From Chiloscyllium plagiosum (taxonomy: Eukaryota), in NCBI RefSeq assembly GCF_004010195.1, contig NC_057753.1, positions 7,989,733-8,053,732 on the forward strand: a DNA stretch of 64,000 nucleotides, read 5' to 3'. Each line of letters opens with the position of its first letter. The stretch's first letter is position 1. The translations under genes and the position numbers were made by a program. Below, in pieces: positions 5,366-63,101 of the stretch. The notes beneath the pieces are model-generated. The model did no database searches and was not told where the DNA came from. It saw nothing but the letters and a program-made list of their open reading frames with translations.

Positions 5366-5397
5366 TCGACGTTTCGGGCATGAGCCCTTCTTCAGGA
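5366..5397 (-). ncRNA. Minimal type I hammerhead ribozyme motif (inverted arm)
   Basis: CUGAAGA-A-[GGGC ucau GCCC]-GAAA-CGUC on the minus strand; stem I only about 2 bp. Confidence 0.55.
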
Positions 5398-5399
5398 GC

Positions 5400-5439
5400 A
5401 GATTCCTGAAGAAGGGCTCATGCCCGAAACATCGATTCT
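5400..5439 (+). ncRNA. Minimal type I hammerhead ribozyme motif
   Basis: CUGAAGA-A-[GGGC ucau GCCC]-GAAA-CAUC; stem I agauuc/gauucu with one U-U mismatch. Confidence 0.6.
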
Positions 5440-5619
5440 CCTGCTCCTTGGATGCTGCCTGACCTGCTGCGCTTTTCCAGGAACACATTTTCAGCTCTGA
5501 TCTCCAGCATCTGCAGTCCTCACTTTCTCCTACTTGGCATATCGACTCAACATAGATTCTCCTAAGAGCATCTCACGTCCATCTCTGTCCTTGTAACAGA
5601 GCATTTCCAAGTGATAACC

Positions 5620-5850
5620 TCACCTCGCCCACATATCCCTGGAAAATATCAGCAATATAGCATGGCAAAACCATCTAACCTGCGCATCTTTGAATTGTGG
5701 GAGGGAACCGGAGCAGCTGGGGGTAAGCCATGCCGAAACGACGAGAATAAGTGAGCTCTTTCCAGAAAATCACCTGGAAGGGGAGTCTAACCCGCGTCCC
5801 TGGCGCTGCCAGGGTGCAGTACTAACCTTTGAGTGATAATGCCACCCTTA
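5620..5850 (-). mobile_element. Degenerate V-SINE
   Basis: aacctgcgcatctttgaattgtgggagggaaccggagca matches the SINE antisense core. Confidence 0.65.
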
Positions 5851-5959
5851 ATACCGGAATGTTACAAGATGGTCCGATTGCATTTATTATGGCAGTGTCC
5901 AAAATGTCAACCAGTGTCACAAATCAAGTTTTCGTCACCCAGTGCAGCTGTACCAATGC

Positions 5960-6170
5960 TCAAGGAGCATGTCGTCATCCATCATCCAGAATAGAACAGC
6001 CACTTCATTGGGACAACATCCAAAAAACATGCACTGCATGCACTTGTGAAAGCTCTCGAGACAGCGAATTCGACCTCATGCCTACTTCCATCTCAAAGGA
6101 CAAGCACAGCAGATATATGGGAAAGCATCTGCAAGTACTCTTCCAAGCCATTCACCATCCGACTTGTACA
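5960..6170 (+). mobile_element. Decayed L2/CR1-group LINE 3' fragment
   Basis: Recognised by eye from ggacaagcacagcagatatatggga..ctgcaagtactcttccaagccattcaccatcc; not confirmed by a search. Confidence 0.4.
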
Positions 6171-6194
6171 TCGTTTAGTACTATTTCTGCTTCA

Positions 6195-6690
6195 TTGTTG
6201 TGGTTCTGATCGCCGAGCTGAAACTTTTTGTTGCAAACGTTTCGTCCCCTGTCTAGGTGACATCCTCAGTGCTTGGGAGCCTCCTGTGAAGCGTTTCTGT
6301 GGTGTTTCCTCCGGAATTTATAGTGGCCTGTCCCTGCCGCTTCCGGCTGTCAGTTTCAGCTGTCCGCTGTAGTGGCCGGTATATTGGATCCAGGTCGATG
6401 TGTTTGTTGATGGAGTTTGTGGATGAGTGCCATGCTTCTAGGAATTCCCTGGCTGTTCTTTGTTTGGCTTGCCCTATAATGGTAGTGTTGTCCCAGTCAA
6501 ATTCATGTTGCTTGTCGTCTGCGTGTGTGGCTACTAAGGATAGCTGGCCGTGGCGTTTCGTGGCTAGTTGATGTTCATGGATGCGGACCGGTAGCTGTCT
6601 TCCTGTTTGTCCTATATAGTGTTTAGTGTTTACAACACACCAAAACGAAGGACCCGATACCCAGCATGAGCAAAACTAATATAGTGTACA
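6195..6690 (-). mobile_element. Penelope-like element 3' part (GIY-YIG endonuclease C-terminus and pLTR), with an inverted segment at about 6630-6690
   Basis: Minus strand KHYIGQTGRQLPVRIHEHQLATKRH..FDWDNTTIIGQAKQRTAREFLEAWHS; plus strand TKTKDPIPSMSKTNIVY. Confidence 0.88.
6233..6272 (-). ncRNA. Minimal type I hammerhead ribozyme in Penelope pLTR
   Basis: gca-CUGAGGA-U-[GUCaCCU agac AGGgGAC]-GAAA-CGUU-ugc; 3-bp stem I and palindromic AACGUU. Confidence 0.72.
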
Positions 6691-6977
6691 NNNNNNNNNN
6701 NNNNNNNNNNNNNNNNNNNNNNNNNNNNNNNNNNNNNNNNNNNNNNNNNNNNNNNNNNNNNNNNNNNNNNNNNNNNNNNNNNNNNNNNNNNNNNNNNNNN
6801 NNNNNNNNNNNNNNNNNNNNNNNNNNNNNNNNNNNNNNNNNNNNNNNNNNNNNNNNNNNNNNNNNNNNNNNNNNNNNNNNNNNNNNNNNNNNNNNNNNNN
6901 NNNNNNNNNNNNNNNNNNNNNNNNNNNNNNNNNNNNNNNNNNNNNNNNNNNNNNNNNNNNNNNNNNNNNNNNNNNNN
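6691..6977. other. Assembly gap
   Basis: Run of N. Confidence 1.
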
Positions 6978-7162
6978 AGATCAGGGTCGCAGAGTGTGGT
7001 GCTGGAAAAACAAAGCTGGTCAAGCAGTATCCCAGGAGCAGGGGATGGAATGTTTCGAACATGAGCTCTTCAGCAGGAAGAAGTTATGATAGAAACGTGC
7101 ATTCTCCTGCTCCTCGGATGCTGTCTGACAAGCTCTGCTTTTCCAGCACCATATTCTTCGAC
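6978..7162. mobile_element. Degenerate palindromic Penelope-derived mini-element
   Basis: tggtgctggaaaa..gcagtatcccaggagcagg mirrored by cctgctcctcggatgctg..ttttccagcacca. Confidence 0.7.
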
Positions 7163-8899: not shown

Positions 8900-11850
8900 G
8901 GACACAGGCCTTCAGCTCAAATTGGCCATGCTGGCCAGGTTTTATAAACTGAACTAGTCCCGTTTGTCAGTGCTTTGCCAAAATCACTGCAGACCCTTCC
9001 TATCCATGTACATGCCTAAAGGTCTTTTTAATGTTGCATTTTCCCTCCACCTCCACTTATTTTTACAGCTGGCTTCATGCACACACCTCGCTCTGTGTTA
9101 AAACAGAAAATCGCCGCTCAAATTGTTTCAATTCTTGCCCCCCTTACCTTCAATGTATGTCCTCTAGTTTTGGTTTCCCTACCCTAGAGAGAACACTTTC
9201 GTCATTCACCTTATCTGTGCCACTCATAAATTTATAATCATGAAAAAAGTCAACCTTCAAAATCCTACCATCCAGGGAGAGAAAAATTCCAAACTATCTA
9301 TGCTGTCCTTATCACACAATCCTTCCAATCTTAGTAACATCCTTGAAAATATTTTTGCACAATTGCCAGTATCGTAACATCCTTCCTACAGCATGGTGAG
9401 CAATAATCGCAGAACTCCAGGTTGACCCTACCGATATCTTTCATGACGTCCCAACTGGTTTATTTAATGATTTCAATGATGAAACGATGCATGCCAAACG
9501 CCTTATTCACCAGCCCGTCTTTCGACTTTAAATGCTCTGAACACTGGAACATCCAGCAACCATTCCATCCCCGAGACACCCATGTATCTGTTATGGCCAA
9601 ACATCATAGCACCAGGTACAGATCCATGCTTTAAGTTCATCACTTTTATTCCAGGTACTCCTTGTGTTAAAGCAAACACTTTAACTGATCCCTTGGTTCC
9701 TTCCCAAGAAAATTCTTCCCCGTAGCTGGTCTACCTCTTGCTGTTGCCTCATCTGCATCAACTCTCGCCTCCTGTATACAGCTCAGGTTCCCACCCCTGC
9801 CATACTAATTTAAACCCTCTCCAACTACTCGAGCAAACCTTCCACGCAGGGCATTGGTCCCTTCCAGTTCAGATGCAATCGGTCCTTTTTGTACAGGTCC
9901 CACCTTCCCCAGAAGGCATCCCAATTATCTTCATATCTAAAGCCCTCCCTCCTCCACCAGCTGTGCAGCCACGTGTTAAGCTGCGCCCGCTCCCTGTTCC
10001 TCGCCTGGATATCTCGTGGCAACGGTAGGAAACGAGAGAACACTACTCTGTTCGTCCTGTTTTGCAGCTTCCATCCTAACTCCCTGAAATCACTTTTTAT
10101 ATCCTCAATCCTTTTTCTGGCTTTATCATTCGTTCCAATATCTAACACGATTTCTGGCTGTTCGCCCTCCCCTTTTAGAACCTGATACACCATATCGGAG
10201 ACGTCCCAGACCATGGCACTGGGGAGGCAAAATACCTTCCGGGAATCCTGATCCTGAACACAAAATCTCCTGTCGATTCCCCTAACTATCGTGTTCGTAA
10301 CGTCCTTCCTACAGCATGGCGAGCAGTAATCGCTGAACTCCAGGTTGACCCTACCGATATCTTTCATGACGTCCCAACTGGTTTATTTAATGATTTCAAT
10401 GATGAAACGATGCATGCCAAACGCCTTATTCACCAGCCCGTCTTTCGACTTTAAATGCTCTGAACCCTGGAACATCCAGCAACCATTCCATCCCCGAGAT
10501 ACCCATGTATCTGTTATGGCCAAACATCATAGCACCAGGTACAGATCCATGCTTTAAGCTCATCACTTTTATTCCAGGTACTCCTTGTGTTAAATCAAAC
10601 ACTTTAACTGATCCCTTGGTTCCTTCCCAAGAAAATTCTGCCCAGTAGCTGCTCTACCTCTTGCTGTTGCGTCATCTGCATAAACTCTCGCCTTCTGTAT
10701 ACAGCTCAGGTTCCCACCCCTGCCATACTAATTTAAACTCTCTCCAACTACTCGAGCAAACCTTCCACTCAGGGCATTGGTCCCTTCCAGTTCAGATGCA
10801 ATCCGTCCTTTTTGTACAGGTCCCACCTTCCCCAGAAGGCATCCCAATTATCTACATATCTGAAGCCCACCAGCTGCGCAGCCACTTGTTAAACTGCGCC
10901 CGCTCCCTGTTCCTCCCCTCGCTATCTCGTGGCAACGGTAGGAATCGAGAGAACACTACTCTGTTCGTCCTGTTTTGCAGCTTCCATCCTAACTCCCTGA
11001 AATCACTTTTTATATCCTCAATCCTTTTTCTGGCTTTATCATTCGTTCCAATATCTAACACGATTTCTGGCTGTTCGCCCTCCCCTTTTAGAACCTGATA
11101 CACCATATTGGAGACGTCCCAGACCCTGGCACTGGGGAGGCAAAATACCTTCCGGGAATCCTGATCCTGAACACAAAATCTCCTGTCGATTCCCCTAACT
11201 ATCGTGTACCGTACCATGAGTACTTTTCTATTCTGCCTCCTTCCCTTTTTTGCCACAGTGTCAGGATCAGTGCCAGAGAACTGACTGCTATGGCTTTCCT
11301 CTGGTAGATCATACCCCCAGCAGTATCCAAAATGGTATACTTATTGCTGAGGGGAATGTCCACAGGGCATCTCTGCACTGTCTGTCAGTCCCTTTCCTCC
11401 CCTTAACTGTAAACCATCTATCCTTGTCCTGAGCCTTAGGAGTGACCAACTACCGGTAACTCCTCTCAAGTACCCCCTCAGCCTCCTGAATGATCCGTAG
11501 TTCATCCAGCTCCAGCTCCAATTCCCTAACCCGTTTTTCAAGGAGCTGGAGTTGGGTGCACTTCCCACAGACGTAGCCAGCGGAGATGTGTGCCATGTCT
11601 CCCACCTGCTACATTCTGCAGGAGCAAACAACTGCCCTAGCATCCATAATCCACTTATCTGAACACCCACTCAGTACTAAAGTTGAAAGCTTAGTTCAAA
11701 TTGCAATAAAATTAATAACAAGCTTATATGGAATAGCGGAAGTTTAGAATGAACCTTACTTTATTAACTAGGTTAGAGGAGGAGGGCGGGTGGGAGGCAC
11801 GACAGTTGTAGTGTCTCGGGTTTAGCCGCCTTGCTGATATATATATATAA
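8900..11850 (-). mobile_element. CR1 LINE segments: 5'UTR, ORF1 esterase and APE start, joined at about 9510 to a CR1 3' end
   Basis: VFCLPSARVWDVS..EIVLDIGTND..RWDLYKKDRLHLNWKG (SGNH esterase) and zinc-finger region at 11450-11645. Confidence 0.85.
9372..11207. repeat. Tandem duplication of about 920 bp (9372-10294 and 10295-11207)
   Basis: Both units start tcgtaac(a/g)tccttcctacagcatgg and end cccctaactatcgtgt; near-identical duplicate ORFs. Confidence 0.95.
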
Positions 11851-12327: not shown

Positions 12328-13894
12328 GAGATACATGGGTAGAACATGGACAGGATTGGCTGTTGCAGGTCCCAGGGTTTAAATGTTTTAGTAGGGTCAG
12401 AGGTGGGGGTAAAAGAGGAGGAGGTGTGGCATTGCTTGTCAAAGATAGTTTTACAGCTGTGGAAAGGACGATGGATGAAGACTCGCCATCTGAGGTAGTT
12501 TGGGCTGAGGTTAGGAATAGGAAATGTGAGCTCACCCTGTGAGGAGTTTTTTACAGGCCTCCTTATAGTCCTAGAAACGTAGAAGAAAGGATTGCGAGGA
12601 TGATTAAAGAGAAGGGTGAAAGTAATAGGGTGGTTGTTATGGGGGACTTTAACTTTCCTGATATTGATTGGGAAAGCTATAGCTCAAGTTCGTTAGATGG
12701 GTCAGTGTTTGTCCAATGTGTGCAGGAGGGTTTCCTGACACAATATGTAGATAGGCCAACAAGACGTGAGGCCATACTGGATTTGGTTCTGGGTAATGAA
12801 CCAGGCCAGGTGTTAGAATTAGAGGCAGGTGAGTACTTTGGGAACAGTGACCACAATTCGGCGACTTTTACACTAGTGATGGAGAGGGATAAGTGTGCAC
12901 TACAGGACAAGAGTTATAGCTGGGGGCAGGGAAACTATGATGCCACACAATACTCAAGTTGAGGTCTTATACGGACTCATAAGTATCTTATATAGTTTCA
13001 TCATCTCATCCCTACTTTTGCATTCTATACCTATGCCAATGAAGGACAGCATTCCAAATGCAATCTTTGCAACCTTATCTACCTGTACTGTTCCCTTTAG
13101 GGACCTGTGCACTTGCACACCAAGATCTCTCACTCCATCTACCCCTCTCAGTATATTCCTATTGATTGGGCATTCGCTTTTATTGTCTGACCTCCCCAAA
13201 TGTATTACTTCACACTTGTACACAGATCTTTGAAAGTTGCCACCCAGGTAAATAGTGCGGTGTGGAAGGCATATGGCGTACTGGCTTTTATTGGTAGAGG
13301 AATTGAGTTCTGGAGTACTGAGGTCATGTTGCAGTTGTATAAGACTTTGGTGCGGCCACATCTGGAGTATTGTGTGCAGTTTTGGTCGCCATACTATAGG
13401 AAGGATGTGGAGGCACTGGAACTGGTGCAGAAGATGTTTACCAGGATGTTGCCTGGTATGGTAGGAAGATTGTATGAGGAAAGGCTGAGGCACTTGCGGT
13501 TGTTTTCATTGGGGAAAAGAAGGTTTAGGGGTGACTTGATAGAGGTGTATAAGATGATTAGGGGTTTAGATAGGGTCGACAGTGAGAATCTTTTTCCACT
13601 TATGGAGTCAGCTATTACAAGGGGGCATAGCTTTAGATTAAGGGTTGGTAGGTATAGGACAGATGTTAGGGGTAGGTTCTTTACTCAGCGTGTCGTGAGT
13701 TCATGGAATGCCCTGCCAGTAGCAGTGGTGGACTCTCCCTCATTATGGGCATTTAAGCGGGCATTGGATAGGCATATGGAGGATCGTGGGCTAGTGTAGG
13801 TTAGGTGGGCTTGGATCGGCGCAACATCGAGGGCCGAAGGGCCTGTACTGCGCTGTATTCTTCTATGTTCTATGTTCTATGTTCTATGTTCTAT
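12328..13894 (+). mobile_element. Composite CR1 insertion: APE fragment (+), inverted RT C-terminal piece (-, about 12951-13215), young 3' end with (TTCTATG)n tail
   Basis: VVMGDFNFP..LDLVLGNE..SDHNS; 199-aa C-terminal ORF; GTTAACA at 12321-12327 and 13895-13901. Confidence 0.8.
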
Positions 13895-14673
13895 GTTAAC
13901 ATGGTGTATATCAGCTTCAGCAAGGCATTTGATAAGATTTTCAATGGTAGGCTCATTCTTAAGTCAGGAGGTATGTGATACTGGGAGATTTGGCTGTCTG
14001 GATTCAGGACTGGTTGGCTGACAGAAGGAAGACAGTAGTTGTAGATGGAAAGTATTCTGCCGGGAGCTCAGTGGTGAGTGTTGTCCCACAGAGGTCTGTT
14101 CTTGGGCCTCTGCTCTTTGTAGTTTTTATAAATGACTTGGATGAGGAGTTTGAAGGGTGTGTTAGTATATTTGCTGATGACACAAAGATTGAAGGTACCG
14201 TTGACAGTATGGAGGGCTATTGCAGGCTGCAGCACGACATAGACAGCAGGCAGAACTGGGCTGAGAAACGGCAGACGGAGTTCAAACTGGATAAATGCGA
14301 AGTGATGCATTTTGGAAGGTCAATCTCGAATGCTGAATATAGGATCAGAGACAGAATTCTTGGCACTGTGGAGGAACAGAGGGATTTGGGTGTGCAAGTA
14401 CATAGGTCCCTCAAAGTTGCCACCCAAGTGGATCGGGTTGTTCAGAAAGCATATGGTGTTTTGGCTTTCATCAACAGGGGGATCGAGTTTAACAGCCGCA
14501 AGGTTTCGCTGCAGCTCCACAAGACCTTGATGAGATCACACTTATAATATTGTGCCCAGTTCTGATAGCCCCATTACAGGAAAGATACGGAGGCTTTGGA
14601 GAGGTTGCAAATAAAGGTTAATGGGATGCTGCCTGGACTGGAGGGCTTGTCCTACGACCAGAGGTTGGCTAAG

Positions 14674-22225: not shown

Positions 22226-22570
22226 AACAAAGTTAAAAATCACACAACACCAGGCTATAGTCCAACAGGTTTACTTGGAAGCACTAGCTTTTGGAGAGCT
22301 AGTCCTTCATTAGGTGGTTGTGGAGTATAAGATGTAAGGACTCAGAATACATGGCAAAAGTTTACAATGTGATATAACTCAAATTATATGCCTCATACCC
22401 TGCAGGCAAAAATATCCTAAGGCATGGTACATTGATGAGACCGAGCAAAGCCTCTGGCAACGGACGAATGCACACTGCACAGCAATCAACAGACAGGAGT
22501 CTTCCTGACAATCGGAGAATACGTCAGCGGAGTGATTTTTAACTTTGTACACCGCAGACCAACAGCTCCA
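22226..22570. mobile_element. Penelope-like element remnant: antisense pLTR with decayed hammerhead, plus GIY-YIG fragment
   Basis: aaagttaaaaatcac at 22229 is inverted at gtgatttttaacttt (22532). Minus strand cUAAUGA-a-GGAcuagcucUCC-AAAA-GCUA. Plus strand CRQKYPKAWYIDETEQSLWQRTNAH. Confidence 0.7.
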
Positions 22571-23591
22571 AATCAATAAACGCAGCACCAGATGTGAGCT
22601 ATAAAGATTTCATGCTCAGGGGAGAGACATACATGGAAAGGAAATCACCTGAGATAGGAATCTGCGGTATACGTGATCTTAAATGCTTTATAAGAAAGCA
22701 GGAAGCAGGCAGAATTAGGCCAGTATCTTCAATTTTGTTATTTTTTCATACGATGTGGGCATCATCTTTGAGGTTATTTATGCTCATTCTGATTTTTCCT
22801 TCTATTGAGTGTCTTAGTCAGCTATTCCCGTGGGCAGTAATGGTTAAAACACATTGTTGTGGGTCAACAGTCACACAGGGACCTGAACAGGAAAGACTAA
22901 CACATTGCATTCACTAAACGACATGAGCAAAGTGTACAAATTTGTTTTGAAAAAATAATGACGGCTTCATTGCCGCCGTGTAAACTTCACTAATTCCCTT
23001 CAATACGAATGATTTCGTACTCTAACTCAAAGAGAGAGCAGTATGATTGACTGTGTTTGAAATAAGTTGGACGTATAACTGTCACTCTAAAAGGGATTGT
23101 CTTTGTTGGTCAGAATTGAAATCTGCTGCATATAGTTGTGTCCAGTTACTATACGGAGGGAGTCCAAAATGAGAAAGTACTGGATACATTCTGGGACATT
23201 TAACACACACGGTTCCTGTCTCTGACATTGGTGACATGAAGACATCTGAAGGACGCATTGAAATGTGCACTTTTGTCTAACCACTGAATTCTTTCTCACA
23301 AATCAAGGGCTGCACTAAAGATGCGAAATCAGCCGAGACGTGACATCGAAGGGGACGCTCTAATTTCAGATACACAGTCATGTTTATTCGCAGCCTCACT
23401 CAATGAGCAAAAAGATCGCAAATGGAAGACCTATGCAGAAAAGTTTAAGAAGCTGACAGAGCTGATGTATGTGCTTATTAATGTCTTTATTTTAGTGTGT
23501 CTTTACTACCGCGTGCGTCTGTGTATCAGTATTTGTGTGTCGGTATTCTAGTATCGATACTGGTATGTGTGTTAACGAGTTTTGAGAAAAT

Positions 23592-24432
23592 TTGTCTCTC
23601 AGGTTAAGGTTTTGGATGTAGGTTTGCTCGCTGAGAGGAAGGTTCATATCCAGACGTTTCTTTACTCTACTAGGGAACATCTTCAGTAGGCCTCAGACGA
23701 AGCAAAATGCTGAAAATTTCTGCTTTCTATTTCTATGTTTGGGTTTCTTTGAGTCGGTGATGTCATTTCCTGTGGTTAGCACTGCCCGCTGATTTCTAAG
23801 CAACGAACTCAAACAAGCAGACAAAATACGTCCAGAAACCCTAGCCACTCTCCCCTACAACAAAGACATCTCGGAAATGTCTGCCAGACTACTCAGACCC
23901 CTTGGCATCATGGTAGCCCACAAACCCACCAACACACTAAAACTGCAGCTAATGAACTTGAAAGACACGATGCAGAAAATGTCATTTACAAAATACCGTG
24001 AAAGGACTGTAACAAACATTGGACAAACAGGCAGAAAAATACCTACCAGGATACATAAACACCAACTAACCACAAAAATACATGACCCTCTCTCACTGGT
24101 ATCCTCACATATGGAGGATGATGGACATCACTTCGACTGGTTCAACACATTCATCCTAGGACAAGCCAAACAAAGACATGCACGAGAATTTCGAGAAACA
24201 TGGCATTCTAACTGGAACTCTGTCAACAAACAAATTAATTTAGACCCACCTACCATCCTCTGAGAAAAGGAACAGGAAGTGACTTCACCACAGGAAATAA
24301 CATCACCACAGGAAATGACATCACCAATCCAAAGAATCCAAACATATAAATAGAAAGCAGGAATATTCAGCATTGCGTTGCCTGAGGCCCACTGAAGATA
24401 TTAACAAGTAGGGTAACAAAACGTCTGGTAGA
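23592..24432 (+). mobile_element. Penelope-like element: inverted pLTR copy (23592-23775), then GIY-YIG region and sense pLTR
   Basis: LATLPYNKDISEMSARLLRPLGIMVAHKP..IGQTGRK..FDWFNTFILGQAKQRHAREFRETWHS; hammerhead-like cores at 23650-23689 (-) and 24389-24428 (+). Confidence 0.88.
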
Positions 24433-25045: not shown

Positions 25046-25129
25046 AAAAACGAACAGCAGAACCAGTGCAATATGGATAATTGTGAGATTAACAACTTTG
25101 ATTAAAACAATTGTAAGGAATTATTTAAC

Positions 25130-47187: not shown

Positions 47188-48043
47188 CAGAAGAGTCTCC
47201 TAAAATGTAATCATGGTATCGAGGTTCATAAATAGAAATGCTGATTAGAAAACCATGGATGTGATGGAAAACCTTTCTGAATCATTATTCGATTCTCGTC
47301 TCTTGCCCGTTCTCAGTGACACACACATCACTGCGAACGTAGGTGCATACGACTTAGGAGTAATTGTAAGCAATTAAGCCATTCAAGCCCGCCCCATCAT
47401 TTCACACTATCATGGCTCATCTCATCCTGGTCTCAATTTCATTTTCCAGCTTGCTCCTCATCGCACGTTACCCCGCTTTATTTCTTTACTGAGTCTGTTC
47501 ATTGATTTTGCCTCCAGACTACCCGAGGGGGCGACCTCCACAGATGTGCCTTGATGAATAATGTGTTCTGTGATCTTTCATCTGAACACAATTGTTGTAT
47601 CCCTGTTACCAACTTGCCTGGTCAATGAAAACCACAGAAATAAGCTTTTTTTACATTTGGAATAAAGTAGCTTAGTGCTACAGTCAGGCTCACGCAGACC
47701 TTGGAAGTTTGCGTTTTCCTTTCCTTTGATGAAGCGAGGGTAATGGAGAAATTTCCAGCGCTTTGTCTGCTACTGGAAAAACTTGAGTTATCTTTTTTTT
47801 CGCTTGGTCTATGTTTTCGGGTTTCCTCTTTCTCCTTGAATGGAGATATCAAGGAAAGAAGCTCTACTTTGCTGAACTCGCCATGACTACGGATGCTGAA
47901 AGGACGCAGCTACATTGGAACAGTTAATGAGTAGCAGTCAAAAAACATACGTCATTTTGTGAAATGTTTGGATCGAATTACAGTCACGTTAGTTCATTTA
48001 CCTTAGTGTTTCAACTGCAATGTAAGAATCAACTATTCAAACT

Positions 48044-48710
48044 TTGTGCGAAGATTTGTAGCTCGGGTGCTCGTTGTTGTGGTCCTGTTCGCCGAGCTGG
48101 AAGTTTTTGTTGCAAACGTTTCGTCCCCTGGCTAGGCGACATCATCAGTGCTTGGGAGCCTCCTGCGAAGCGCTTCTTTGATGTTTCCTCCGGTGTTTAT
48201 AGGGGTCTGCCCCTGCCGCTTCCGGTTATCAGTTTCAGCTGTCCGCTATAGTGGTTGGTATATTGTGTCCAGGTCGATGTGATTGTTGATGGAGTTTGTG
48301 GATCAATGCCATGCCTCTAGGAATTCCCTGGCTGTCCTCTGTCTGGCTTGCCCTATGATAGTAGTGTTGTCCCAGTCGAATTCATGTTGCTTGTTGTCTG
48401 CGTGTGTGGCTACTAAGGATAGCTGGTCGTGTCGTTTCGTGGCAAGTTGATGTTCATGTATGCGGATTGGTAGCTGTCTTTCGTTCTGGTGAGTTGTTGT
48501 CTGAGCGTGGCTGTTGGTTTGTGTGCCGTTATGAGTCCTAGGGGTCGCAGTAGTCTGGCTGTCAGTTCCGAGATGCTCCTGATGTATGGTAGTGTGGCTA
48601 GTCCTTTTGGTTGTGGTATGTCCTCGTTCTGTGGTCTTTCTCTTCGGCATCTGTTGATGAAGTTGCGCGGGTATCCGTTTTTGGCGAAAGGTGGTATTGC
48701 GGAAAGGAGC
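48044..48710 (-). mobile_element. Penelope-like element 3' part, same family as 6195-6690, with an internal deletion removing the GIY-YIG motif
   Basis: FAKNGYPRNFINRC..LATLPYIRSISE..TRTKD joined directly to RQLPIRIHEHQL..FLEAWH. Confidence 0.88.
48112..48151 (-). ncRNA. Minimal type I hammerhead ribozyme in Penelope pLTR
   Basis: gca-CUGAUGA-U-[GUCgCCU agcc AGGgGAC]-GAAA-CGUU-ugc; core intact. Confidence 0.75.
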
Positions 48711-49282: not shown

Positions 49283-49284
49283 AC

Positions 49285-53030: not shown

Positions 53031-53153
53031 AGAATGGTGCTGTGAAAGCACAGCAGGTCAGGCAGCATCCAAGGAGCAGGAAAATCTTCGTTTGAGGCAA
53101 AAATCCCTTCATCGACGTTTTGGGTTAAAGCCCTTCTCGACTTTCGGGCAAAA
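53031..53153 (-). mobile_element. Degenerate Penelope-derived mini-element with locally reiterated hammerhead segment
   Basis: aaagcacagcaggtcaggcagcatccaaggagcagg followed by about 3 decayed copies of tcgacgtttcgggcaaaagcccttc. Confidence 0.6.
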
Positions 53154-54879
53154 TGTGACGTTTTAACACTCCACCAATAAATAAGATCGTTGCTTATCTC
53201 ACTCTGATCTCTTCACTGCACTTTTTGTTTTTTGACATGCATGTCGGAATTAAAAACTGACAGCCTCAATATAATGAGAAAAATTCCCAACACAAACTAC
53301 TCGGAATGTTAATTCCCACTTGAATGGCACATTGCGAATTTCTCCCTGACCCTCCTCTGACTAGTGTTGGAGTGGTCCCTGTTTCTGTTTGTAGTCCCAT
53401 TACCCATCTGGTCGCAATAGGACAGGTCAGCATTTGTTTTTCCGAAGTCAACAAGTCATTGGTTTATGAACAAAATAAACGTCTTCTATTTCCTGTTAGT
53501 TAACCAGGGTTGTCCGTTCCTGTGCAGTGGGCTAGAAAGCTTGAATTGCCTCGTACACTGCTGTGGAGTATAATCAAAAAGTTAAACAATATCATTCCAT
53601 TCCTGTCTAAATGCTTAGAAGGACAAAATGGTCTTCTCTGTTCTTAATGCAAAGTCCCTGACTTGCTGAATGGGATCTTCCTGATTACTTAGAAGCCTTA
53701 TAGGATTGGGTGAGTTACCAGGTCTTTGAAGTACAAATCAGGAAAAGCAACTGATGGCCGTTTGACCTCTCGTACCTGTTGCACAGTTCCAACATAGAAC
53801 AGTTGATCTGATAGTGTCTGAACATTGTTGTTATCTCTCTCTCCATTAAATATTTACTCTCCCATCTAGAAAAGATCATTGTATCTCAGACTTGAACCTT
53901 TTTAAAACCTAGTCTGCCCTGTTCCCAAGAGATAAGATGACCACAGGTAGGGCAAAATCAAAGAGAAAGGGACATTCTTACCTTAACGGTAAATGGGAGG
54001 CCTGCCATTTTAAAACATTGTTCCCTCACAAAAAAACAACTCCTTTTGCGACAGAAGGATATAACAATTATGAACTCAAGTAGACCATTCAGCCTCTCAG
54101 ACCTGTCCCACAAATGATTTGTTCTCTATTCAAAGAAATACTATCAAAGGCAGCTGTAAATGCTCTCTATGTAATAATTTCCCAGATGTGTCCTTATTTG
54201 CTTCTTGAATGGGAGACCCCAGATTTTTGAATGTCTTCTGCCAAATTGAGACTAAACCACAAGAGGAAGAGTGCTTCAGTATCCATCTGATCAAGTCCTG
54301 TCAGAGTCGGTTCTCTCCTAATCAGACCACATCCCATTCCTGAAAACTCTGATGCCCCAAACTGCTCAGCATCTCTGCAGAGGATAAACAATTCATTCTG
54401 GAATCATACAAACGAACTGAACTTGTAAAAGTAATTAGAGGTAAGGATACAGAAAAAAAAGTTCATACACAGTCCTCCAGATGCATTCTCAATCAGAATG
54501 GGGACAATTGCAGCAACACGTTCGCCCTAGCAAGTTGATTGGAAGAACAGCGCGGGGACACAGTTTATTGTTTTTCTTTTGAAAAATCATTTTCAATCAT
54601 TTACAAAAAATGGGGAGATTTATTTTCTTTTCTCAGACTGTTGTGGGACTTTTGAATCTCATCAGCATAGAACATTGAATACTTTGATGTATACCCAGGC
54701 ATATTTTTGAATAACAATGGGCCGAGTGTTGTCACGGAGAGAACAGAGGTATGCAGTGACATGCTGACAATGGAGCAAAATGAAAATGCAGATGAGCAGA
54801 ATATCCAAAAAATGCAACAGGATAATAAATGATGATAGACAGAAACACACAACTTTAAGAGTGAAAGAATAAAGCCGAT

Positions 54880-55075: not shown

Positions 55076-56365
55076 ATAACTTGAAACTGCTAGTGGTGGT
55101 GAATAAAAACCAAAAGCAAAGGGCAACAGAAACTTTGAAAACAACGAAGAAGCCAAAAGACAGATAATTTGCAAAATAACAGCGAAGGACAACATTTGCG
55201 AGGTGTCAAAACCATATAGTATAATTAGAAGCAATATGCGGATAATGCCATTGATTAAATGAAATAAGGCGACATGTGTGCAATTACCAGATGTACTACT
55301 TATAATTAGGTATTAATATCAATTTAAGAAATGTATCTTTGCGAGATTATGTGTAAAAATGCTTTTAAATACCAAGACGTATGAAGCTGAGGTAATGTGT
55401 TGTTGGAGAATCACTTTTCCGTTTCCTAAAAATGGGTACCGGGATTACGCCTGAAAAAGTTGGTTTATCAAGTGTCCGAGTGCCATCTGTTCAGTGACGG
55501 GAACCCAAGGGTTCAAACACTGAAAATTCCTATGAATGGAGCTCAGCTCACAATCAGATCAGCCACAATCTTATTGTGTGATGGAGCAGGTTTTGAATGG
55601 CCAAACTGTCGTATGAAGGATCCTGAACTTATGTCGCTATGTTCTCTGAAAGAGAAAAACGACTCGACATCTCTATGTGTGTTACATACAATAGTATCAG
55701 TCCTTCCCCAAACCTACGAATTCTCTGCAACATCATCTGGAACAATTTTTAACACGACATCCTCCAGAACACTCGATAACACTCTGTCACCACCATTCTC
55801 TGGAACATTCTTACACTGAGGCTATGTTTGAAAGTCCAGTCGTTTCATAATTGTTTGAAATATAAGTTCCCGAGGGAAGAGAGCCTGTTCAAGCAAGAAG
55901 GGGACACAAGACCCCTCACGCAGCACGAGGTGAAAATACATACTTTTTGGCATTCACACGTTTTCACGATAGAGGGTCGACCATGATTTTAAACTACAAA
56001 CAGAAATTTCCAACCTCCGAATGACTTCAAGGAACAGGAAGGCAACCCTTCAGGACGCCAACATTTTCACCCTCTGTATCATTCACTCTAAAGTGTGGCT
56101 GTTTTCCAGTGATCAGGGGCACAAGAACTTTATGGAAACTATCTAATCTTACAGATGTGTGTCTGTTTGTTTGGAGAGGAAGTGTTTCTCGTGTTTTAAC
56201 TCACATTTTTGTAAGTAATTCAGAACTTATGACTTCTTATTTCAGCTACAATTTATTCCATAAATCTCTGAATGCAGTATCTTATGTTAATATCTCACAT
56301 CTTAATCAAACAGCTAATTTTGCTTCCAAACCGAGATATAATTTGTTTGCTTGCTTTCCTCATAG

Positions 56366-57261
56366 TTAACGTTTTGACGATCTACGTCCTGGTTTATAAA
56401 GATTGTGGATTGTCTCTATGCATCAGTCATTTCCTGGTGGCCATGGCAGTGGCGGATCTACTGGTAATTATCATTGACCTGATATTGAGACAAATTCCAA
56501 TTGTTTTTTGGGAACAGTTTTATTTCCTGACATCCATTCGCGTGTGCAATATCCACGCTGTCCTGCTTTATGCCGCCACTGACTGTTCTGTCTGGTTCAC
56601 CGTCAGTTTCACCTTCGATCGATTTCTGGCGATTTGTTGCCAGAAGCTGAAGCGTAAATATTGCAGTGACGAAACAACAGCTAAGATTCTGGGAACGGTG
56701 ACCGTGCTGAGCTTTTTGAAGAATATTTTCTGGTATTTTATGCTCTCAGATCAGTATCGGCTTGTGAACCTCCCCTGGTTTTGTCATGTACCCAGCGATG
56801 TTTATGAGTCTCCGGTCTGGCTCACAATCGAGTTCCTCCATTACATTCTCACCCCGTCTCTCCCGTTTCTCCTGATTCTGTTGTTCAATGGTTTCACGGT
56901 CAGGCACATTTTAGTGACCAGCAGAGCCCGCAGGAGACTCCGGGATCACACCAATGGGGACGTTCAACGTGACACAGAAATGCAAAATCGAAAAAAATCT
57001 ATCACATTATTGTTTGTGATCTCGGCCAACTTCATCCTATTATGGTTCTCATCAATGCTGTACACTCTATGGTACCGGATGTGGTATTTGGGATATAGGT
57101 TTTTGTATCTACATTGGTTTGTTCTGGAATTGGGCTTCATGCTACAGCTTCTCAGTTGCAGCACAAACACTGCAATTTATGCCGTGACACAGAAGAGGTT
57201 CAGGCAACAGCTGAAGAATGTACTGAAATGTTCAAATTCACCAATAAGTCATAATCACTAA
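56366..57261 (+). CDS. Paralogous GPCR exon 2, copy R; intact frame, no plus-strand exon 1 visible
   Basis: Same acceptor (ttgctttcctcatAG|TTAAC) and the same 7TM motifs as copy L. By hand count about 37 nt and 22 aa differences from copy L over 896 nt, with no stops or frameshifts. Confidence 0.85.
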
Positions 57262-60200
57262 TTAAGCAGTCCATTCAGAATTCTGTCATTTCGAATTTTT
57301 TCTCAAGAATAATTCAGCCTGTCCCTTTGGTAACAGGATGTGTGTAGTTCCACCTTGTCCATTTGTTACACGTGAACGGTTACACTCCTCTCATCTCAGC
57401 GTCCCATGAGAAAAGGCACTATTTCACTCACTGTACCTGTAACTTCAGTTTGTTACTGAAAGAAATTGCCATTATAAGTGCCAAACAGCAGTACTAGCTG
57501 TTTTGTCGTTCGTCATTTTCTGAAGATTCTGAACTGAAGAGAGAGATATTTGACAATAATTCTGCTCATTGGGAAAGGGGAGGGGACCAGGCTGAACGAA
57601 GGAGATGTGTTTAAGTCACTCTGTCCTTCCTTTCACTCTGGTGACCAAACAGAAAATTCTCCTTTCATATCTCCCGTCCACCTCTTCTCACCCTCACACT
57701 CAAAATCTACCTCTCTATTTCGCTCTCTCCACCTCCTATCGTCCTCTCATTTTTTTCTACTCTTTCAGTGTTTCTTACTCTGCTGGTCTTCATCACATTC
57801 TCTCCATTCTGCACTCCCTGACATTCGGTCTTCCTCAATTCAGTTTAAATCGCTCTCTCCATCTTCTGATACCCTCTCTCTGTTTCCTTCCTCTCCATTC
57901 TCTCCATCATTATTCTTCTCTTTCTCCCTCCCTCCATTCCCCACACCCTCACCCTCCCACGCCCACCTTTTCCACATTTCATTTCTCTTCCTGTTCGTCT
58001 ATCCTGCCTCTCCTTCTTAGTACACCTCTCTATCACGTTCTCTCCTTCCGTATCTCCTGATCTCTACCCCCGACAACTCGCCCTCTCTCGTCTGCACTCT
58101 CTCCATCAATCGTTTTTACACTCAGTCACAAAGGAACACGCTCTGACGGCCATGTAAATTTGTTAATTATGTTAGATAAGTTCCAGACACCTGATTGGGT
58201 CTATAACACAATATTGAGTGAGGGAAGGGAAGCGAGAGTTGGAAACTTGGCAGATATCTTTTTGTCCTGTTCAGCCACAGGTGCTGTCGCATAGGACAGG
58301 AAAATAGCCAAAGTGTTGTCCATTGTCCATTGTTTAAGAAGCGTAGTCGGGAGAACCCAGGAAATTGCAGGCCTGCAAGCCTCATGTCGGAGGTTTGGAA
58401 ATTATTAGAACAGCTTCTCAGGGAACAGGTTCTCTAAGATGCAAATGGAGTTCTAAGCGACACAGAGCAATGGTTTTGTGCCAGTTGGTCGTGCTTCATT
58501 AAGTTGATCGAGTTTTATTTTGAGGAGGTGGCGAAGATGATTGATGAGGAAAAAGCGGTTCACGTTGTCAACATTGATTTCAGTAAAACCTTTCCTAAAG
58601 TCCCTCAAGGCAGACGAGTACAGAAGGTGAATTCATGTCGTATCGGCGTGACTTGGCAAGATGGACGCAGAACTGGCTTAGTCTTAAGAGACAGAAATTG
58701 GCAGTAGACGAATGTTTTGCAAATCGAGTGCTGCTACCTCTACTATTCGTGGTCTAGATAAATGTTTTGGAGGAAAACATAACTGGTATAATTAGTAAGC
58801 TTGCGGAAAATACAAAATTGGTGAGTTGCAGGATAGTGAGAAGGATTGCCAGAGGATAGAGAGGGGTATAGATCAGTTGGAGGCAATGGCAGAAAAATGG
58901 CAGATGGAGTTTCATCTGAAAATTCAAACGTGATGTGATGCATTTTGGAAGGGCAAGTGCAGGTGGAAATTATACAATGAATGTCAGAAACCTTAGGAAT
59001 ACTAACATGAAGAGGAATCTTGGCGTGTAGATATACGGATCACTGAAGGTGGCAGCACAGATTGGCAAATTAGGTAAAAAGGCCCATGTCATTGTTGGCT
59101 TCAGTGGAAGCTATTGAATTATTGTTCAGACAATTTATGCTCCAACTTCATAGAAATGTATTTAGGCTACAATTCTCACAATGTGTTCCGTTCTGATCCA
59201 CACATTCCAAAATGATGTCAATGCTTAGGTACAGGAAAGGTTTATTAGGATGTTAGCTATTATGGAGGATTTTAGCTTCGAAGAAAGTTTGAATAGACTG
59301 TGTTTTTATCACCAGAACGCAGGAGGTTGAGGGGCGACCTGATAGAAGTTATAAGTTTGTGTAGCATGGATATGGTGGAAATTATGAGGTTGTTTTCCCA
59401 GGTTGGAGGGGTGAAATCAGATGGGGGCACAGGTTCAATATGCAGGGGAGAAGTTTAAAAGAGATGTGAGAGGTTAGATCTTCACACAAAATATGGAGAG
59501 TGTCTGGAACACACAGCCAGAGGAAGTGGTGGAAGGAGACACAATGGCAGCATTCAAGGAGCACCTGAACAAACACATGAGTAGGAACGGAAAGAGAGAT
59601 ATGGTTCATGTAAATCCAGAATGTCTTAGTATGGGAAATGAAAATGTGTCGGCACAGGCTTGGAAGCCCGAAGGCGCTGTTTCTGTGCAGTATTGTTCTT
59701 TTTTATTTGTTCTTTGAATCCGTTCTGCCATCTCGGTTGAATAACTGAAGGATAACTGAATACCATCTCCTGATTGGGTCGAAGAGAAACTTGTATTTCC
59801 CTCAACTCGCTCATTAACTCTGAGCCATGTACAACACACTCTCTGAACCTGTTTACACATCCTGGACAATGGGATATGCCGTTTATCTGTCCATTTGAAT
59901 AGAAGCTCAATCTGGAACGTTGTTGGATGTTACAGACAGGAGAGGATCCTTCGTCTGAGCAGAAAGGAGATGGTGGCGAGCCGGATCAGTGTTTTAGTTA
60001 TCAGAAGACAGCCGTTTTGTGGTCTAAATAGCAACTTTGGTGGGTCAAATGGGAAGGTTAGGCAGATCAGGTCGGAGACTTTGAAAGACCTTAGGGTGGT
60101 ATCTTAAATAGCGAACTGAGGCCATCGCTATGGAAGCATAGAAGGAACAGCAGCAGGCCATTCAACTCCTCGAGCTGGCTGAATCATTCTTTATGATCAT

Positions 60201-61561
60201 TGCTGATCATCAAGTTCAATGCCCTAATCACAATCTGTCTCCATATCTCTTGATCCCTTCAGCCACATGAGATACATGTACTTCAGTGACGAAACTTTTT
60301 CCTCAACTACTTTTGTGACACTGAATTCCATCAGCTTGCCACTGTTTCGAAGAAACAAATTTTCCTCTTCTTCCTAGTAAAAGCTTCAGACATTATCATT
60401 CAACCATGACCTATTCAAATGGACGTCCTCTCGATCAGGAACATCCTTCATGGATCTGATTGTCGAGCACTGTAGAATTTTACAGGTTGCTGTCCGATTG
60501 CCGCTCAGTTTCTAAACTCACATGAACACAACCCTAACCGAATTAATCACTCACCGTAAGTCAGCCTTATCATCCCATGATTCAATTTGCTGAAAGTTTG
60601 CTGCACGTCATGGAAATCCATACATCTTTCCAAAGAAAAGGAGACCAAATTTCCCACAATGTTCCAGTTGAAGTGTCGCCAATGCTCTGTACCATTGCAG
60701 CAAGACATTTTTGCTCCTGGACTCGAATTCTTTCGCTATGAAGGCCCACATGCAGTTTAACGTCTTTCCGACCTGATGAACCTTGCTTAATTGCAGCGAC
60801 TGCATACGAGGACACCAAAGTCTCATTTACCGTTGCCTTTTCCAACTTTGTAACTATTTAAATAACAATCTTCCTTCCGATTTTTTTTCTATCAAAATTG
60901 ATAATCTCACAATTATCCATATTGCACTGGTTCTGCTATTCGTTTTTCTCTCACTGTGTGTATATGTTGTTATGCATGTGAGCGTTTAGGACTCTTTGTT
61001 TATCTGTGTGTTTATATGCAAGTGATTCTGTGTGTCCGTATGCGTGTATCTGTGATTGTATGGATGTCTTTACGGATCAGTCTCGCGAGTCTCTGTGCAT
61101 ATATGTGTGTTTCTTTGAGTCTGCATGCATGACTGTGTTTCACATATCAGCATCTATGTTTCACGTATGTGTATCTCTGTGCGTTTCTGCGTGTGTGTCT
61201 CTGTCTGTGCTTCAGTCTTTGTGTATATGTATGGTCTGTTTGTGCTTGTGTCTGTGGGTGTCTTTTCGTTTGTCTCTGTGTTTGTGTCTGCACGTGTGTT
61301 TCTTGGTACTTGCCTTTGTGTGCCAATGTTTACCATTAGATGTGTGTGTCTGCGTATGTTGAAGGTGCTGTTAGTTTGGATAGTGCTTTCAGACTGGATG
61401 ATGGTGCGAGCTGCTGCCCTACCTTTCTCCCTCTCTGATCGAATCGCTGATGATTTTCAGTATCTGTCGACTGTGCAGTGGCATGCAGAGGCCTTCAGAA
61501 AGTGGCATTGCATCTCTCTTAACAGCAGAGACATTTTCAGAATGCCACACACATATAAACA

Positions 61562-62400
61562 TTTACCAAATGTTTCCTTACCCTACTAGGTAATGTCTTC
61601 AGTGGGCCTCAGGCAACGCAATGCTGAATATTCCTGCTTTCTATTTATATGTTTGGGTTCTTTGGATTGGTGATGTCATTTCCTGTTGTGATGTTATTTC
61701 CTGTGGTGAAGTCACTTCCTGTTCCTTTTCTCAGAGGATGGTAGGATGGTCTAAATTGATTTGTTTGTTGACAGACTTCCAGTTAGAATGTCATGTTTCT
61801 GGAAATTCTCGTGCATGTCTTTGTTTGGCTTGTCCTAGGATGGATGTGTTGTCCCAGTCGAAGTGGTGTTCATCATCTTCCATATGTGAGGATACTGGTG
61901 AGAGAGTGTCATGTCTTTTTGTGGCTAGTTGGTGTTCATGTATCCTGGTAGCTAGTTTTCTGCCTGTTTATCCAATGTTTGTTATGCTCCTTGCACGGTA
62001 TTTTGTAAATGACATTTTCTGTATCGTGTCTTTCAATTTCATTACCTGCATTTTAAGTGTGTTGGTGGGTTTGTGGGCTACCATGATACCAAGGTGTCTG
62101 AGTAGTCTGGCAGTCATTTCCGAGATGTCTTTGATGTAGGGGAGAGTGGCTAGGGTTTCTGGACGTGTTTTGTCTGTTTGTTTGGGTTCGTTGCTGAGAA
62201 ATCAGCGGGCAGTGTTCACCACAGGAAATGACATCACCGAATCAAAGAAACCCAAACATATGAATAGAAAGCAGAAATTTTCAGCATTGCTTCGCCTGAG
62301 GCCCAATGAAGATGTTACTTAGTAGAGTAACGAAACGTCTGGATATGAACCTTCCTCTCAGCGAGCAAACCTACATCCAAAACCTCAACCTGAGAGACAA
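61562..62400 (-). mobile_element. Mirror copy of the Penelope-like element at 23592-24432
   Basis: Reverse-complement match; hammerhead-like cores at 61566-61605 (-) and 62303-62342 (+). Confidence 0.88.
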
Positions 62401-62868
62401 ATTTTCTCAAAAATCCCTAACACACATACCAGTATAGACACTATAATACCGACACACAAATACTGATACACAGACACAAGTGGTAGTAAAGATACACTAA
62501 AATAAAGATACTAATAAGCACATACATCAGCTCTGTCAGCTTCTCTGACTTTTCTGCACAGTTCTTCCATTTTCGATCTTTTTGCTCATTGAGTGAGGCT
62601 GCGAATAAACATGACTGTGTATCTGAAATTAGAGCGTCCCCTTCGAGGTCACTACTCGGCTGATTTCACACATTTAGTGCAGCCCCTGATTTGTGAGAAA
62701 GAGTTCGGTGGTTAGACAAAAGTGTACATTTAAATGCGTCCTTCATATGTCTTCATGTTACCAATGTCAGAGACAGGAACCACGTGTGTTAAATGTCCCA
62801 GAATGTATCCAGTACTTTCTCATTTTGGACTCCCTCCGTATAGTAACCGGACACAACTGTACATGCAG

Positions 62869-63101
62869 GAGAAAGTGAGGACTGCAGATGCTGGAGATCA
62901 GAGCTTAAAATTGTGTTGCTGGAAAAGAGCAGCAGGTCAGGCAGCATCAAAGGAACAGGAGAATCGACATTTCGGGCATAAGACTTTCAACAGGAATGGG
63001 GAAAAGCCCTTCCTGAGGAAGGGCTTATGCCCGAAACGTCGATTCTCCTGTTCCTTTTATGCTGCCTGACCTGCTGCGCTTTTCCAGCAACATATTTTGA
63101 A
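62869..63101 (-). mobile_element. Palindromic Penelope-derived mini-element present only in the right arm
   Basis: Flanked by acaact(g/a)tacatgcag at 62853-62868 and 63102-63117; empty site at about 23126-23139. Confidence 0.88.
63011..63042 (+). ncRNA. Minimal type I hammerhead ribozyme motif
   Basis: CUGAGGA-A-[GGGC uuau GCCC]-GAAA-CGUC; stem I about 2 bp. Confidence 0.58.

What the first reader, a model, noticed from the sequence alone, without database searches (positions are those of the whole stretch)
5366..63042. Minimal hammerhead ribozyme motifs in at least four Penelope-related families
Seen: CUGAnGA + one extra nucleotide + stem II + GAAA + short NNUH. Family A: 6233-6272 (-) and 48112-48151 (-). 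Family B: 5366-5397 (-), 5400-5439 (+) and 63011-63042 (+). Family C: decayed copies at 23650, 24389, 61566 and 62303, whose consensus cca-CUGAAGA-U-GUUACCU-agua-GGGUAAC-GAAA-CGUC-ugg is intact. Family D: about 22280-22316 (-), decayed. Stem II differs in sequence between families but pairs in the intact copies, which is covariation-type support. Established: Penelope-like pLTRs carry minimal type I hammerheads with a palindromic stem III thought to act as dimers. These particular families may be undescribed.
Basis: partly seen in the sequence, partly recalled or inferred. Interest (0 to 1): 0.7.

Follow-up and report, generated by a model that had tools for sequence, protein, structure and literature searches.

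The report
Penelope-element minimal hammerhead ribozyme relics
These are real but mostly dead copies of the tiny self-cutting "hammerhead" RNA motif that Penelope-like jumping genes carry in their end repeats, here in a shark-like genome, so the catch is correct but the kind is already described.

Summary
All listed motifs are at the stated coordinates. Four pass a strict minimal-hammerhead descriptor, against none in 100 shuffles. They sit in end repeats (pLTRs) of truncated Penelope-like elements. A and C follow GIY-YIG endonuclease remnants related to zebra-shark and trematode RT-endonuclease proteins. D lies inverted beside a weak remnant. B forms short head-to-head palindromic inserts with 16-bp target duplications and an empty paralogous site; no ORF was tied to B. 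Corrections: the four C copies are one insertion (two arms) doubled by a segmental duplication; none is intact. A has a stem II mismatch; D has two core changes. No locus offers an intact same-strand, same-family pair, so cis-dimers cannot form here. In A and C the ORF's AUG lies inside the ribozyme, as published for Anolis Poseidon; in A1 the endonuclease frame also ends in loop II. The class is published (PMC4209133), with a Clonorchis motif nearly identical to A. No shark example was seen in the parts searched. This scan has found the kind before (14 notes, two of 8 shown in this genome). Cleavage was not tested. New members of a known kind.

The parts
6233..6272 (-). Family A minimal hammerhead, copy A1; core intact, H17=U at 6236, stem I 3 bp, stem II 6 of 7 pairs; holds the ORF AUG (6263-6261) and the TAG (6255-6253) that ends the endonuclease frame
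6364..6639 (-). GIY-YIG endonuclease remnant of A1, frame open through the pLTR to the stop in loop II
   Evidence: (iE 1.1e-31)
6639..6692 (+). Probable inverted piece of the same endonuclease gene, running into the N gap (head-to-head junction near 6639); weak
   Evidence: profile positions 11-28, iE 1.2; inference
48112..48151 (-). Family A minimal hammerhead, copy A2; core intact; AUG opens a peptide matching the N-termini of full-length RT-endonuclease proteins
48040..48622 (-). 5'-truncated family A element: linker and endonuclease remnant with stops, pLTR, tail
5343..5529 (.). Family B palindromic insert B1: short arm 5343-5397(-) with intact motif (core 5395, H17 5368), long arm 5403-5529(+) with motif (core 5406, CG>CA) and tail
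5327..5342 (+). Target-site duplication of B1, left copy (right copy 5530-5545; 15 of 16 identical)
62869..63101 (.). Family B palindromic insert B2: long arm with tail and decayed motif (core about 62993, -), short arm with intact motif (63011-63042, +)
62853..62868 (+). Target-site duplication of B2, left copy (right copy 63102-63117; 15 of 16 identical); the paralogous site near 23125-23140 is empty
6995..7157 (.).
53034..53160 (-). Fourth, decayed B-type arm preceded by short head-to-tail partial repeats of the motif lacking C3-U4
23577..24428 (.). Family C insert C1: inverted pLTR with tail (23577-23776, -, motif 23650-23689), linker and endonuclease remnant (23793-24251, +), pLTR ending at motif 24389-24428 (+); both motifs damaged
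61566..62420 (.). Family C insert C2, paralog of C1 by segmental duplication: motif 61566-61605 (-), endonuclease remnant 61743-62072 (-), inverted pLTR with motif 62303-62342 (+, C3>A) and tail
22280..22316 (-). Family D decayed hammerhead-like motif (two core changes) in an inverted pLTR, about 22225-22380
22377..22520 (+). Weak GIY-YIG remnant beside D, followed at 22532-22548 by a second copy of the D end sequence
   Evidence: (iE 8.4e-4)
63134..63203 (+). Paralogous 3' part of the D pLTR; the 5' part of the motif is deleted

Best explanation
The motifs are genuine minimal type I hammerheads from the pLTRs of at least three, probably four, Penelope-like retrotransposon families of a cartilaginous fish. 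The copies here are dead, 5'-truncated, mostly head-to-head inverted inserts. How it works (inferred from published work, not shown here): in an active partial-tandem element each unit carries one motif. The ACGU palindrome lets two motifs pair into a shared stem III, or the element's own protein holds the fold, and the RNA is cut after NUH 17. Reverse transcription starts in the tail 3' of the motif and copies uncut RNA; this is why whole motifs survive in the inserts (shown: inserts hold the whole motif and B has a fixed tail end). In A and C the cut falls 28 nt after the ORF's AUG, so cutting would separate the start codon from the reading frame (position shown; consequence inferred). At these loci the motifs most likely do nothing: they are single, damaged, or buried in a long hairpin with their own antisense arm.
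For: Strict hits 4 against 0 in 100 shuffles. 4 of 4 strong endonuclease remnants are followed by a motif. The C remnant is 65-67% identical to Stegostoma RT-endonuclease proteins P0001 and P0003. Proteins fetched by RT/endonuclease likeness, not by the motif, carry it in translation: P0001 and P0004 internally, and 2 of 57 long proteins (P0007, P0009) start with the peptide encoded from A's AUG (the A2 alignment score was reached by 0 of 2000 shuffles for each). Codon-forced bases agree with the core; pair 10.2-11.2 is U-A in window A and in C62306 and C-G in P0009. Row Clonorchis_sinensis(2) of Fig. S3 in PMC4209133 matches A2 at 36 of 42 positions by my count and also mispairs at the 4th stem II position. 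B: 16-bp target duplications at 2 of 4 B units, empty paralogous site; loose ends with unrelated flanks pile up at 5530-5532 in all 4 runs laid. In the RNA run 421 of 552 and 551 of 785 reads restore CG at 5431, and 95 of 182 have H17=C at 6236. B1 folds into one 54-pair hairpin, -122 to -131 kcal/mol. Published: monomer inactive, dimer weak (PMC4209133); Anolis motif cuts only with its protein, mutants still insert in vitro (PMC11167929).
Against: No cleavage was tested. One search lists no place where many molecules begin or end (a polyA single-cell library, 2 in 100 of the run read, unsuited to 5'-OH ends). No ORF was linked to B; scans for B, D and A/C relatives gave 0, 0, 0, 0 and 1 distant locus. 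B stem I is only 2 bp, with pairing probability 0.01-0.37 in monomers. The double-hammerhead fold lies 4-18 kcal/mol above the dimer MFE in 5 of 5 copies. In A and C much of the core is also coding, so part of its conservation may be protein constraint. P0007 is forced to a mismatch at the 5th stem II pair. D alone is not above chance.
Confidence: 0.88

Rival explanations
1. The motif is a conserved RNA structure or protein-binding signal of Penelope elements that descends from a hammerhead but no longer cuts in vivo; retrotransposition does not use cleavage.
For: Anolis core mutants insert normally in vitro and no RNA-seq ends map to the site (PMC11167929). Naiad and most Chlamys elements lack the motif yet amplify (10.1101/2021.04.23.441226, passages). 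No read-end pile-up. Unfavourable folding energies.
Against: The Anolis motif does cut, core-dependently, with protein. The 13 scored core positions are identical between A1 and B5395 (13/13) while flanks match 3/20 and 3/20 (copies were chosen by their core, so this is partly circular).
Confidence: 0.25
2. In A and C the apparent core is kept by protein coding (end of the endonuclease frame and start of the next ORF), not by ribozyme function.
For: The AUG covers A9-U-G10.1 and the T-K-R-L codons cover C11.1 to H17. H17 U or C is a synonymous Leu change. The endonuclease frame of A1 runs through C3-A9.
Against: Third positions U4, G12, A15.1 and U16.1 are the same in A1, A2 and C62306, whereas 4-fold sites in the endonuclease match at only 6 of 16 and 7 of 16. 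B has the same core with no AUG there. P0009 keeps stem II pairing through amino-acid changes.
Confidence: 0.05
3. The motifs are active non-LTR retrozymes or host-domesticated ribozymes that work at these loci.
For: HHR-bearing tandem retrozymes are reported in one chondrichthyan (10.64898/2026.07.22.740005, passages). Family-level RNA reads exist; for A they are strand-biased, about 181:21.
Against: No head-to-tail units with two intact motifs. The only same-family, same-strand pair within 3 kb is 5395 with a decayed arm at 7078. 94 in 100 laid RNA reads run on into unlike sequence, so they come from other copies. Copies decay as neutral DNA would.
Confidence: 0.04
4. Chance matches.
For: The motif is short; 2 of 9 relaxed hits look accidental and D fails the scan.
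Against: 0 hits in 100 shuffles, unimposed features present in 4 of 4, position beside endonuclease genes.
Confidence: 0.02

Closest known systems
Minimal hammerheads (min-HHR) in pLTRs of metazoan Penelope-like elements, Cervera and De la Pena 2014 (PMC4209133; abstract to Methods start and supplement file 2 parts 1-2 read)
   Same: Core, one extra nt after A9, G10.1-C11.1, palindromic 15.2-16.2, short helix I, place in pLTRs, mostly single or opposite-strand copies of truncated elements. Their Clonorchis sinensis (2) motif is nearly identical to family A.
   Different: No cartilaginous fish in their Table S1 or Fig. S3 rows (supplement file 1 not searched). Families B, C, D are not among the rows seen.
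Poseidon element of Anolis carolinensis, Frangieh et al. 2024 (PMC11167929; main text parts 1-2 read)
   Same: ORF start at the beginning of stem II, cut site shortly after it (26 bp there, 28 nt here), fixed tail end, C-terminal GIY-YIG.
   Different: Active and tested in vitro; the copies here are truncated relics. An overlap with the upstream frame's stop codon is not mentioned in the parts read.
Trematode Cercyon/Perere10-like Penelope/Poseidon elements
   Same: Shark proteins P0001 and P0003 group with two trematode and three unnamed proteins (100/98 support); same N-terminal peptide.
   Different: Host lineage. P0007 and P0009 end before the pLTR, so the read-through into the ribozyme is not shared. 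The clade name rests on Table S1 of PMC4209133 and a passage of PMC3846280, not on reference sequences.
Inverted-pLTR Penelope inserts with tail and target duplication (PMC3846280 and 10.1101/2021.04.23.441226, passages)
   Same: Head-to-head inverted truncated copy, tail on one arm only, target duplication, empty-site proof.
   Different: B units are reduced to the two pLTR ends (187 and 233 bp); duplications are 16 bp against 8-10 bp in the rotifer examples.
Non-LTR retrozymes (10.64898/2026.07.22.740005; part 1 and passages read, supplements not seen)
   Same: Type I hammerheads derived from Penelope pLTRs; reported in one chondrichthyan.
   Different: Defined as head-to-tail repeats with a motif in each unit; not the arrangement here.

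Membership tests
min-HHR of Penelope-like elements | Core CUGANGA ... GAAA ... UH | tested here: met
   Intact in A1, A2, B5395, B63013 and B5406; damaged in D and in C62306, C24392; C23686 and C61602 keep these boxes but lose stem II's closing pair.
min-HHR of Penelope-like elements | One extra nucleotide between 9 and 10.1; G10.1-C11.1 pair | tested here: met
   4 of 4 strict hits, not imposed by the descriptor.
min-HHR of Penelope-like elements | Palindromic 15.2-16.2, no loop III | tested here: met
   CG in A, in 2 of 3 listed B copies and 3 of 4 C copies; GC in D. Imposed in the strict scan. RNA reads mostly restore CG at 5431.
min-HHR of Penelope-like elements | Helix II and a short helix I | tested here: met
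   Stem II pairing probability at least 0.95 for the first three pairs in A1, A2, B5395, C62306; helix I 3 bp in A and C, only 2 bp in B. Published rows include 2-bp helix I.
min-HHR of Penelope-like elements | Located in the pLTR of an RT-GIY-YIG element | tested here: met
   Met for A and C, weakly for D; for B see the last row.
min-HHR of Penelope-like elements | Core-dependent self-cleavage as dimer or with protein | not testable with these tools
   No assay; no read-end pile-up in an unsuited library.
Penelope/Poseidon clade (families A, C) | C-terminal GIY-YIG endonuclease after RT | tested here: met
   Window remnants plus relatives P0001 and P0003 with RVT_1 and GIY-YIG hits, some below Pfam's cut-off. 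No RT of these elements is in the window itself.
Penelope/Poseidon clade (families A, C) | No CX2-5CxxC zinc finger in the RT-endonuclease linker | tested here: met
   Read by eye: no cysteine in the linker of the C remnant, P0001 or P0003; criterion. The scripted check printed nothing.
Penelope/Poseidon clade (families A, C) | pLTR includes the first codons of the ORF, with tail | tested here: met
   criterion from PMC3846280 and PMC11167929.
Penelope/Poseidon clade (families A, C) | RT phylogeny with named clade references | tested here: inconclusive
   The tree holds no named Poseidon, Neptune or Nematis references.
Neptune clade (families B, D; the label is recalled) | Zinc-finger linker between RT and endonuclease | not testable with these tools
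   No linker sequence in the window; homolog search with the D remnant found nothing.
Non-LTR retrozymes | At least two consecutive head-to-tail units with complete motifs | tested here: not met
Penelope-like element (family B) | Association with an RT-GIY-YIG ORF | tested here: inconclusive
   No ORF in the window; other copies run on upstream of the motif (loose ends at 5397 and 5402) but only 30 letters are shown. Inverted arms, one-sided tail and target duplication are met.

The most novel reading that the evidence does not exclude
In the shark A/C lineage the hammerhead is a triple overlay: the stop codon of one unit's ORF (TAG in loop II), the AUG of the next unit (A9-U-G10.1, 11 nt of overlap) and the ribozyme core share one stretch. 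Protein-assisted cutting 28 nt after the AUG would then be a feedback switch: the element's protein removes the start codon from its own tandem mRNA and so limits its own synthesis. Seen: A1's endonuclease frame is open to that TAG, and TAG stands at the same place in 5 of 6 A/C copies. Against generality: P0001 reads through this point and P0007 and P0009 stop earlier. One paper search for this overlap gave 2 papers; passages of one and passages of the preprint of the other did not describe it.
Probability: 0.15. Interest if true: 0.55.

Novelty: new member of a known kind. Interest (0 to 1): 0.2.

Why it matters
It extends a described ribozyme class to cartilaginous-fish Penelope families, where these repeats are very abundant: summed contig depth over the A and B motifs is five to six orders of magnitude above the single-copy flanks, which the tool says is no copy number. 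What these ribozymes do is still open in print. Young shark families with the AUG inside the ribozyme would be fair material for that question, but this window offers only relics and does not by itself make the question more testable than the Anolis system already does.

Tried and rejected
Rfam: no hammerhead model hit, 7 sub-threshold hits to hairpin families rejected. Pfam on 8 window frames: GIY-YIG only at E 0.045 for A1, none for A2, C or the D frame. Homolog search with the 56-aa D frame: 0 of 2 candidates. Search of 1.84 billion representatives with the 37-aa A2 N-terminal peptide: 0 hits; the match to P0007, P0009 and P0004 comes from pairwise alignment only. Pattern scans for B and D in viral contigs and for D in prokaryote genomes: 0. 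Endonuclease-anchored scans: 1 distant metagenome locus of 181 candidates (L001, 27% identity, ends 228 nt after the match, no motif seen by eye), 0 of 49 viral candidates. Sequencing runs: no RNA holder listed. Read laying showed only the 40 best-supported of 160 differences; among them only H17, the loop of B and the CG at 5431 fall in the motifs, but this cannot test core conservation. Heterodimers of neighbouring A and B motifs (874 nt apart, same strand) rejected by eye: their stem I strands are not cross-complementary, and the B arm is hairpin-bound. Target duplications for A, D, the third and fourth B units and the 32230 unit were not found; for C only 8-9 bp in TG-rich sequence. Horizontal transfer between flatworms and sharks: not testable, the tree lacks other vertebrate elements (46 of 61 proteins kept, P0028 is a cestode protein left labelled unnamed). 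Paper searches for shark examples: 0 papers, 3 papers with none relevant by listing or passages, 7 papers of which one was read in passages. Earlier findings by sequence: none.
Full report
Setting. The window is repeat-rich eukaryotic DNA, 41% GC with 1580 N. A large inverted segmental duplication joins about 21428-29679 to 56059-64000 at 91-96%. The closest named relatives of the element proteins are from the zebra shark Stegostoma tigrinum, so a cartilaginous fish is inferred. No whole genome is held.

Observation. All listed motifs are present. A strict minimal type I descriptor gives 4 sites, cores at 5395(-), 63013(+), 6269(-) and 48148(-), and none in 100 dinucleotide shuffles; with one core mismatch, 9 sites against 0-2 in 25 shuffles. 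The extra nucleotide after A9 and the G10.1-C11.1 pair appear in 4 of 4 without being required. These are the features that PMC4209133 names as emerging from its own searches and its printed consensus fits A, B and C. Rfam has no matching hit.

Context of A and C. A profile from 49 endonuclease domains finds four strong GIY-YIG remnants in the window, at 6364-6639(-), 48243-48488(-), 23922-24251(+) and 61743-62072(-), and each is followed on the same strand by an A or C motif. The C remnant is 65-67% identical to two Stegostoma RT-endonuclease proteins and 45-46% to two Clonorchis proteins (4 hits among 225 candidates). The linker lacks the zinc finger of Neptune and Nematis (criterion), which places A and C with Penelope/Poseidon. 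In a tree of 46 of 61 fetched proteins the two shark proteins group with two trematode and three unnamed proteins at 100/98. The four C motifs are the two arms of one inverted insert, copied by the segmental duplication: paralogs 101/110 and 104/112 identical, cross-arm pairs 91-95 of 109-111.

The ribozyme overlaps the ORF. In A1, A2, C62306 and C23686, A9, the extra U and G10.1 spell AUG. The A2 frame from it aligns with the N-termini of two full-length proteins, P0007 (832 aa) and P0009 (824 aa, Dicrocoelium), 2 of 57 long hits, and with an internal stretch of P0004; none of 2000 shuffles reached the scores. A library-wide search with the same 37 residues found nothing, as expected for so short a peptide. 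This arrangement is published for the Anolis Poseidon (PMC11167929). Because these proteins were fetched by RT and endonuclease likeness, they give support not selected on the motif: bases forced by their codons fit the core, and pair 10.2-11.2 is C-G in P0009 against U-A in A; P0007 is forced to one mismatch. The published Clonorchis (2) motif matches A2 at 36 of 42 positions by my count from the PDF text. Upstream, A1's endonuclease frame is open through the pLTR to a TAG in loop II; 5 of 6 A/C copies have TAG there, though only A1 has an unbroken frame. P0001 reads through this point and P0007 and P0009 end earlier, so the stop overlap is not general.

Family B. B occurs as short head-to-head pairs: 5343-5529 and 62869-63101, each with a 16-bp target duplication (15 of 16 identical), and the paralogous site of the second is empty. 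Two more decayed units lie at 6995-7157 and 53034-53160. Only one arm has the tail. Laying 4 runs on 5300-6420 gave 147,882, 115,753, 3,692 and 25,199 records; loose ends with unrelated flanks pile up at 5530-5532 in all four, marking a fixed element end, and many copies run on upstream of the motif. This is the inverted-pLTR-with-tail layout of Penelope inserts. No ORF was tied to B. The label Neptune for B and D is recalled and untested.

Family D. One decayed motif on the minus strand adjoins a plus-strand GIY-YIG remnant (iE 8.4e-4 in the window; Atlas neighbours at 0.92-0.93 with GIY-YIG on 17-20% of members, a lead only), and the D end sequence recurs after it. It is plausible but the weakest of the four.

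Function. Published tests: a Schistosoma min-HHR is inactive as monomer and weak as dimer; the Anolis motif cuts only with its protein, its mutants still insert in vitro, and no RNA-seq reads end at the site. Here the double-hammerhead fold is 4-18 kcal/mol above the dimer MFE and 1.5-6.7 above two monomers in 5 of 5 copies, in a model that ignores core contacts. At these loci a cis-dimer is not available: the only same-family, same-strand pair within 3 kb is 5395 with a decayed arm, and B transcripts fold into one long hairpin on either strand. RNA reads of both families exist in a polyA single-cell run; 94 in 100 come from other copies. For A the strand ratio is about 181:21 at 6212-6249, which under the usual library orientation (inferred) is the ribozyme-sense strand; for B it is 592:886 at 5414-5451. 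No place shows a pile-up of molecule ends, which this library could hardly show.

Novelty. The class, the place in pLTRs, the single and opposite-strand relics and the AUG overlap are in print. No cartilaginous fish appears in Table S1 or Fig. S3 of PMC4209133 (file 1 not searched), and my searches found no paper on shark Penelope hammerheads. A 2026 preprint reports hammerhead retrozymes in one chondrichthyan; its supplements were not seen and may hold these families. Repeat databases were not available, so 'undescribed' cannot be claimed. This scan has 14 earlier notes of the kind in at least 5 genomes; 8 were shown, two from this genome. They agree with a reading I had recorded before looking and are not independent support. 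Verdict: real, correctly identified, new members of a known kind; interest 0.2.

Noticed in passing
window 28477-29466(-) and 56272-57261(+): Two intact, intronless 329-aa rhodopsin-family GPCR frames, paralogs in the inverted segmental duplication (7tm_1 E 9e-16 for the first; arms 96% alike).
   Followed up: partly
window 21428-29679 and 56059-64000: Inverted segmental duplication of over 8 kb; B2 inserted into one copy afterwards, and about 800 bp including most of D is missing from that copy.
   Followed up: partly
window 53034-53160(-): A decayed B arm is preceded by about 26-nt head-to-tail partial repeats of the motif that lack C3-U4; probably slippage at a shared GA.
   Followed up: partly
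window 32230-32335: Inverted pair of a fifth family with a B-like tail; both arms stop short of any hammerhead.
   Followed up: partly
window 5398-5402, 62998-63009, about 7078-7080: In 3 of 3 two-armed B units the inversion point lies within about 16 nt of the motif's 5' edge; many copies elsewhere run further upstream, so a preferred turning point is possible but not shown.
   Followed up: partly
P0001, P0003 against P0005-P0010: Shark RT-endonuclease proteins group with trematode ones (100/98) and the A motif is nearly identical to a Clonorchis motif: a possible host-parasite transfer, untested for lack of other vertebrate elements.
   Followed up: partly
window 2338-2650, 18829-19106, 21755-22055, 26421-26605, 36571-36859, 49007-49260, 63474-64000: Many copies of a tRNA-headed SINE of about 300 bp; the name HE1 of sharks and rays is recalled, not from a call.
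   Followed up: no
window 9372-11340, 12543-14547, 40364-42442, 44004-44705: LINE fragments (RT and SGNH/GDSL-like frames); several near-identical 1-kb tandem pairs, one beside an N gap, may be assembly duplications.
   Followed up: no
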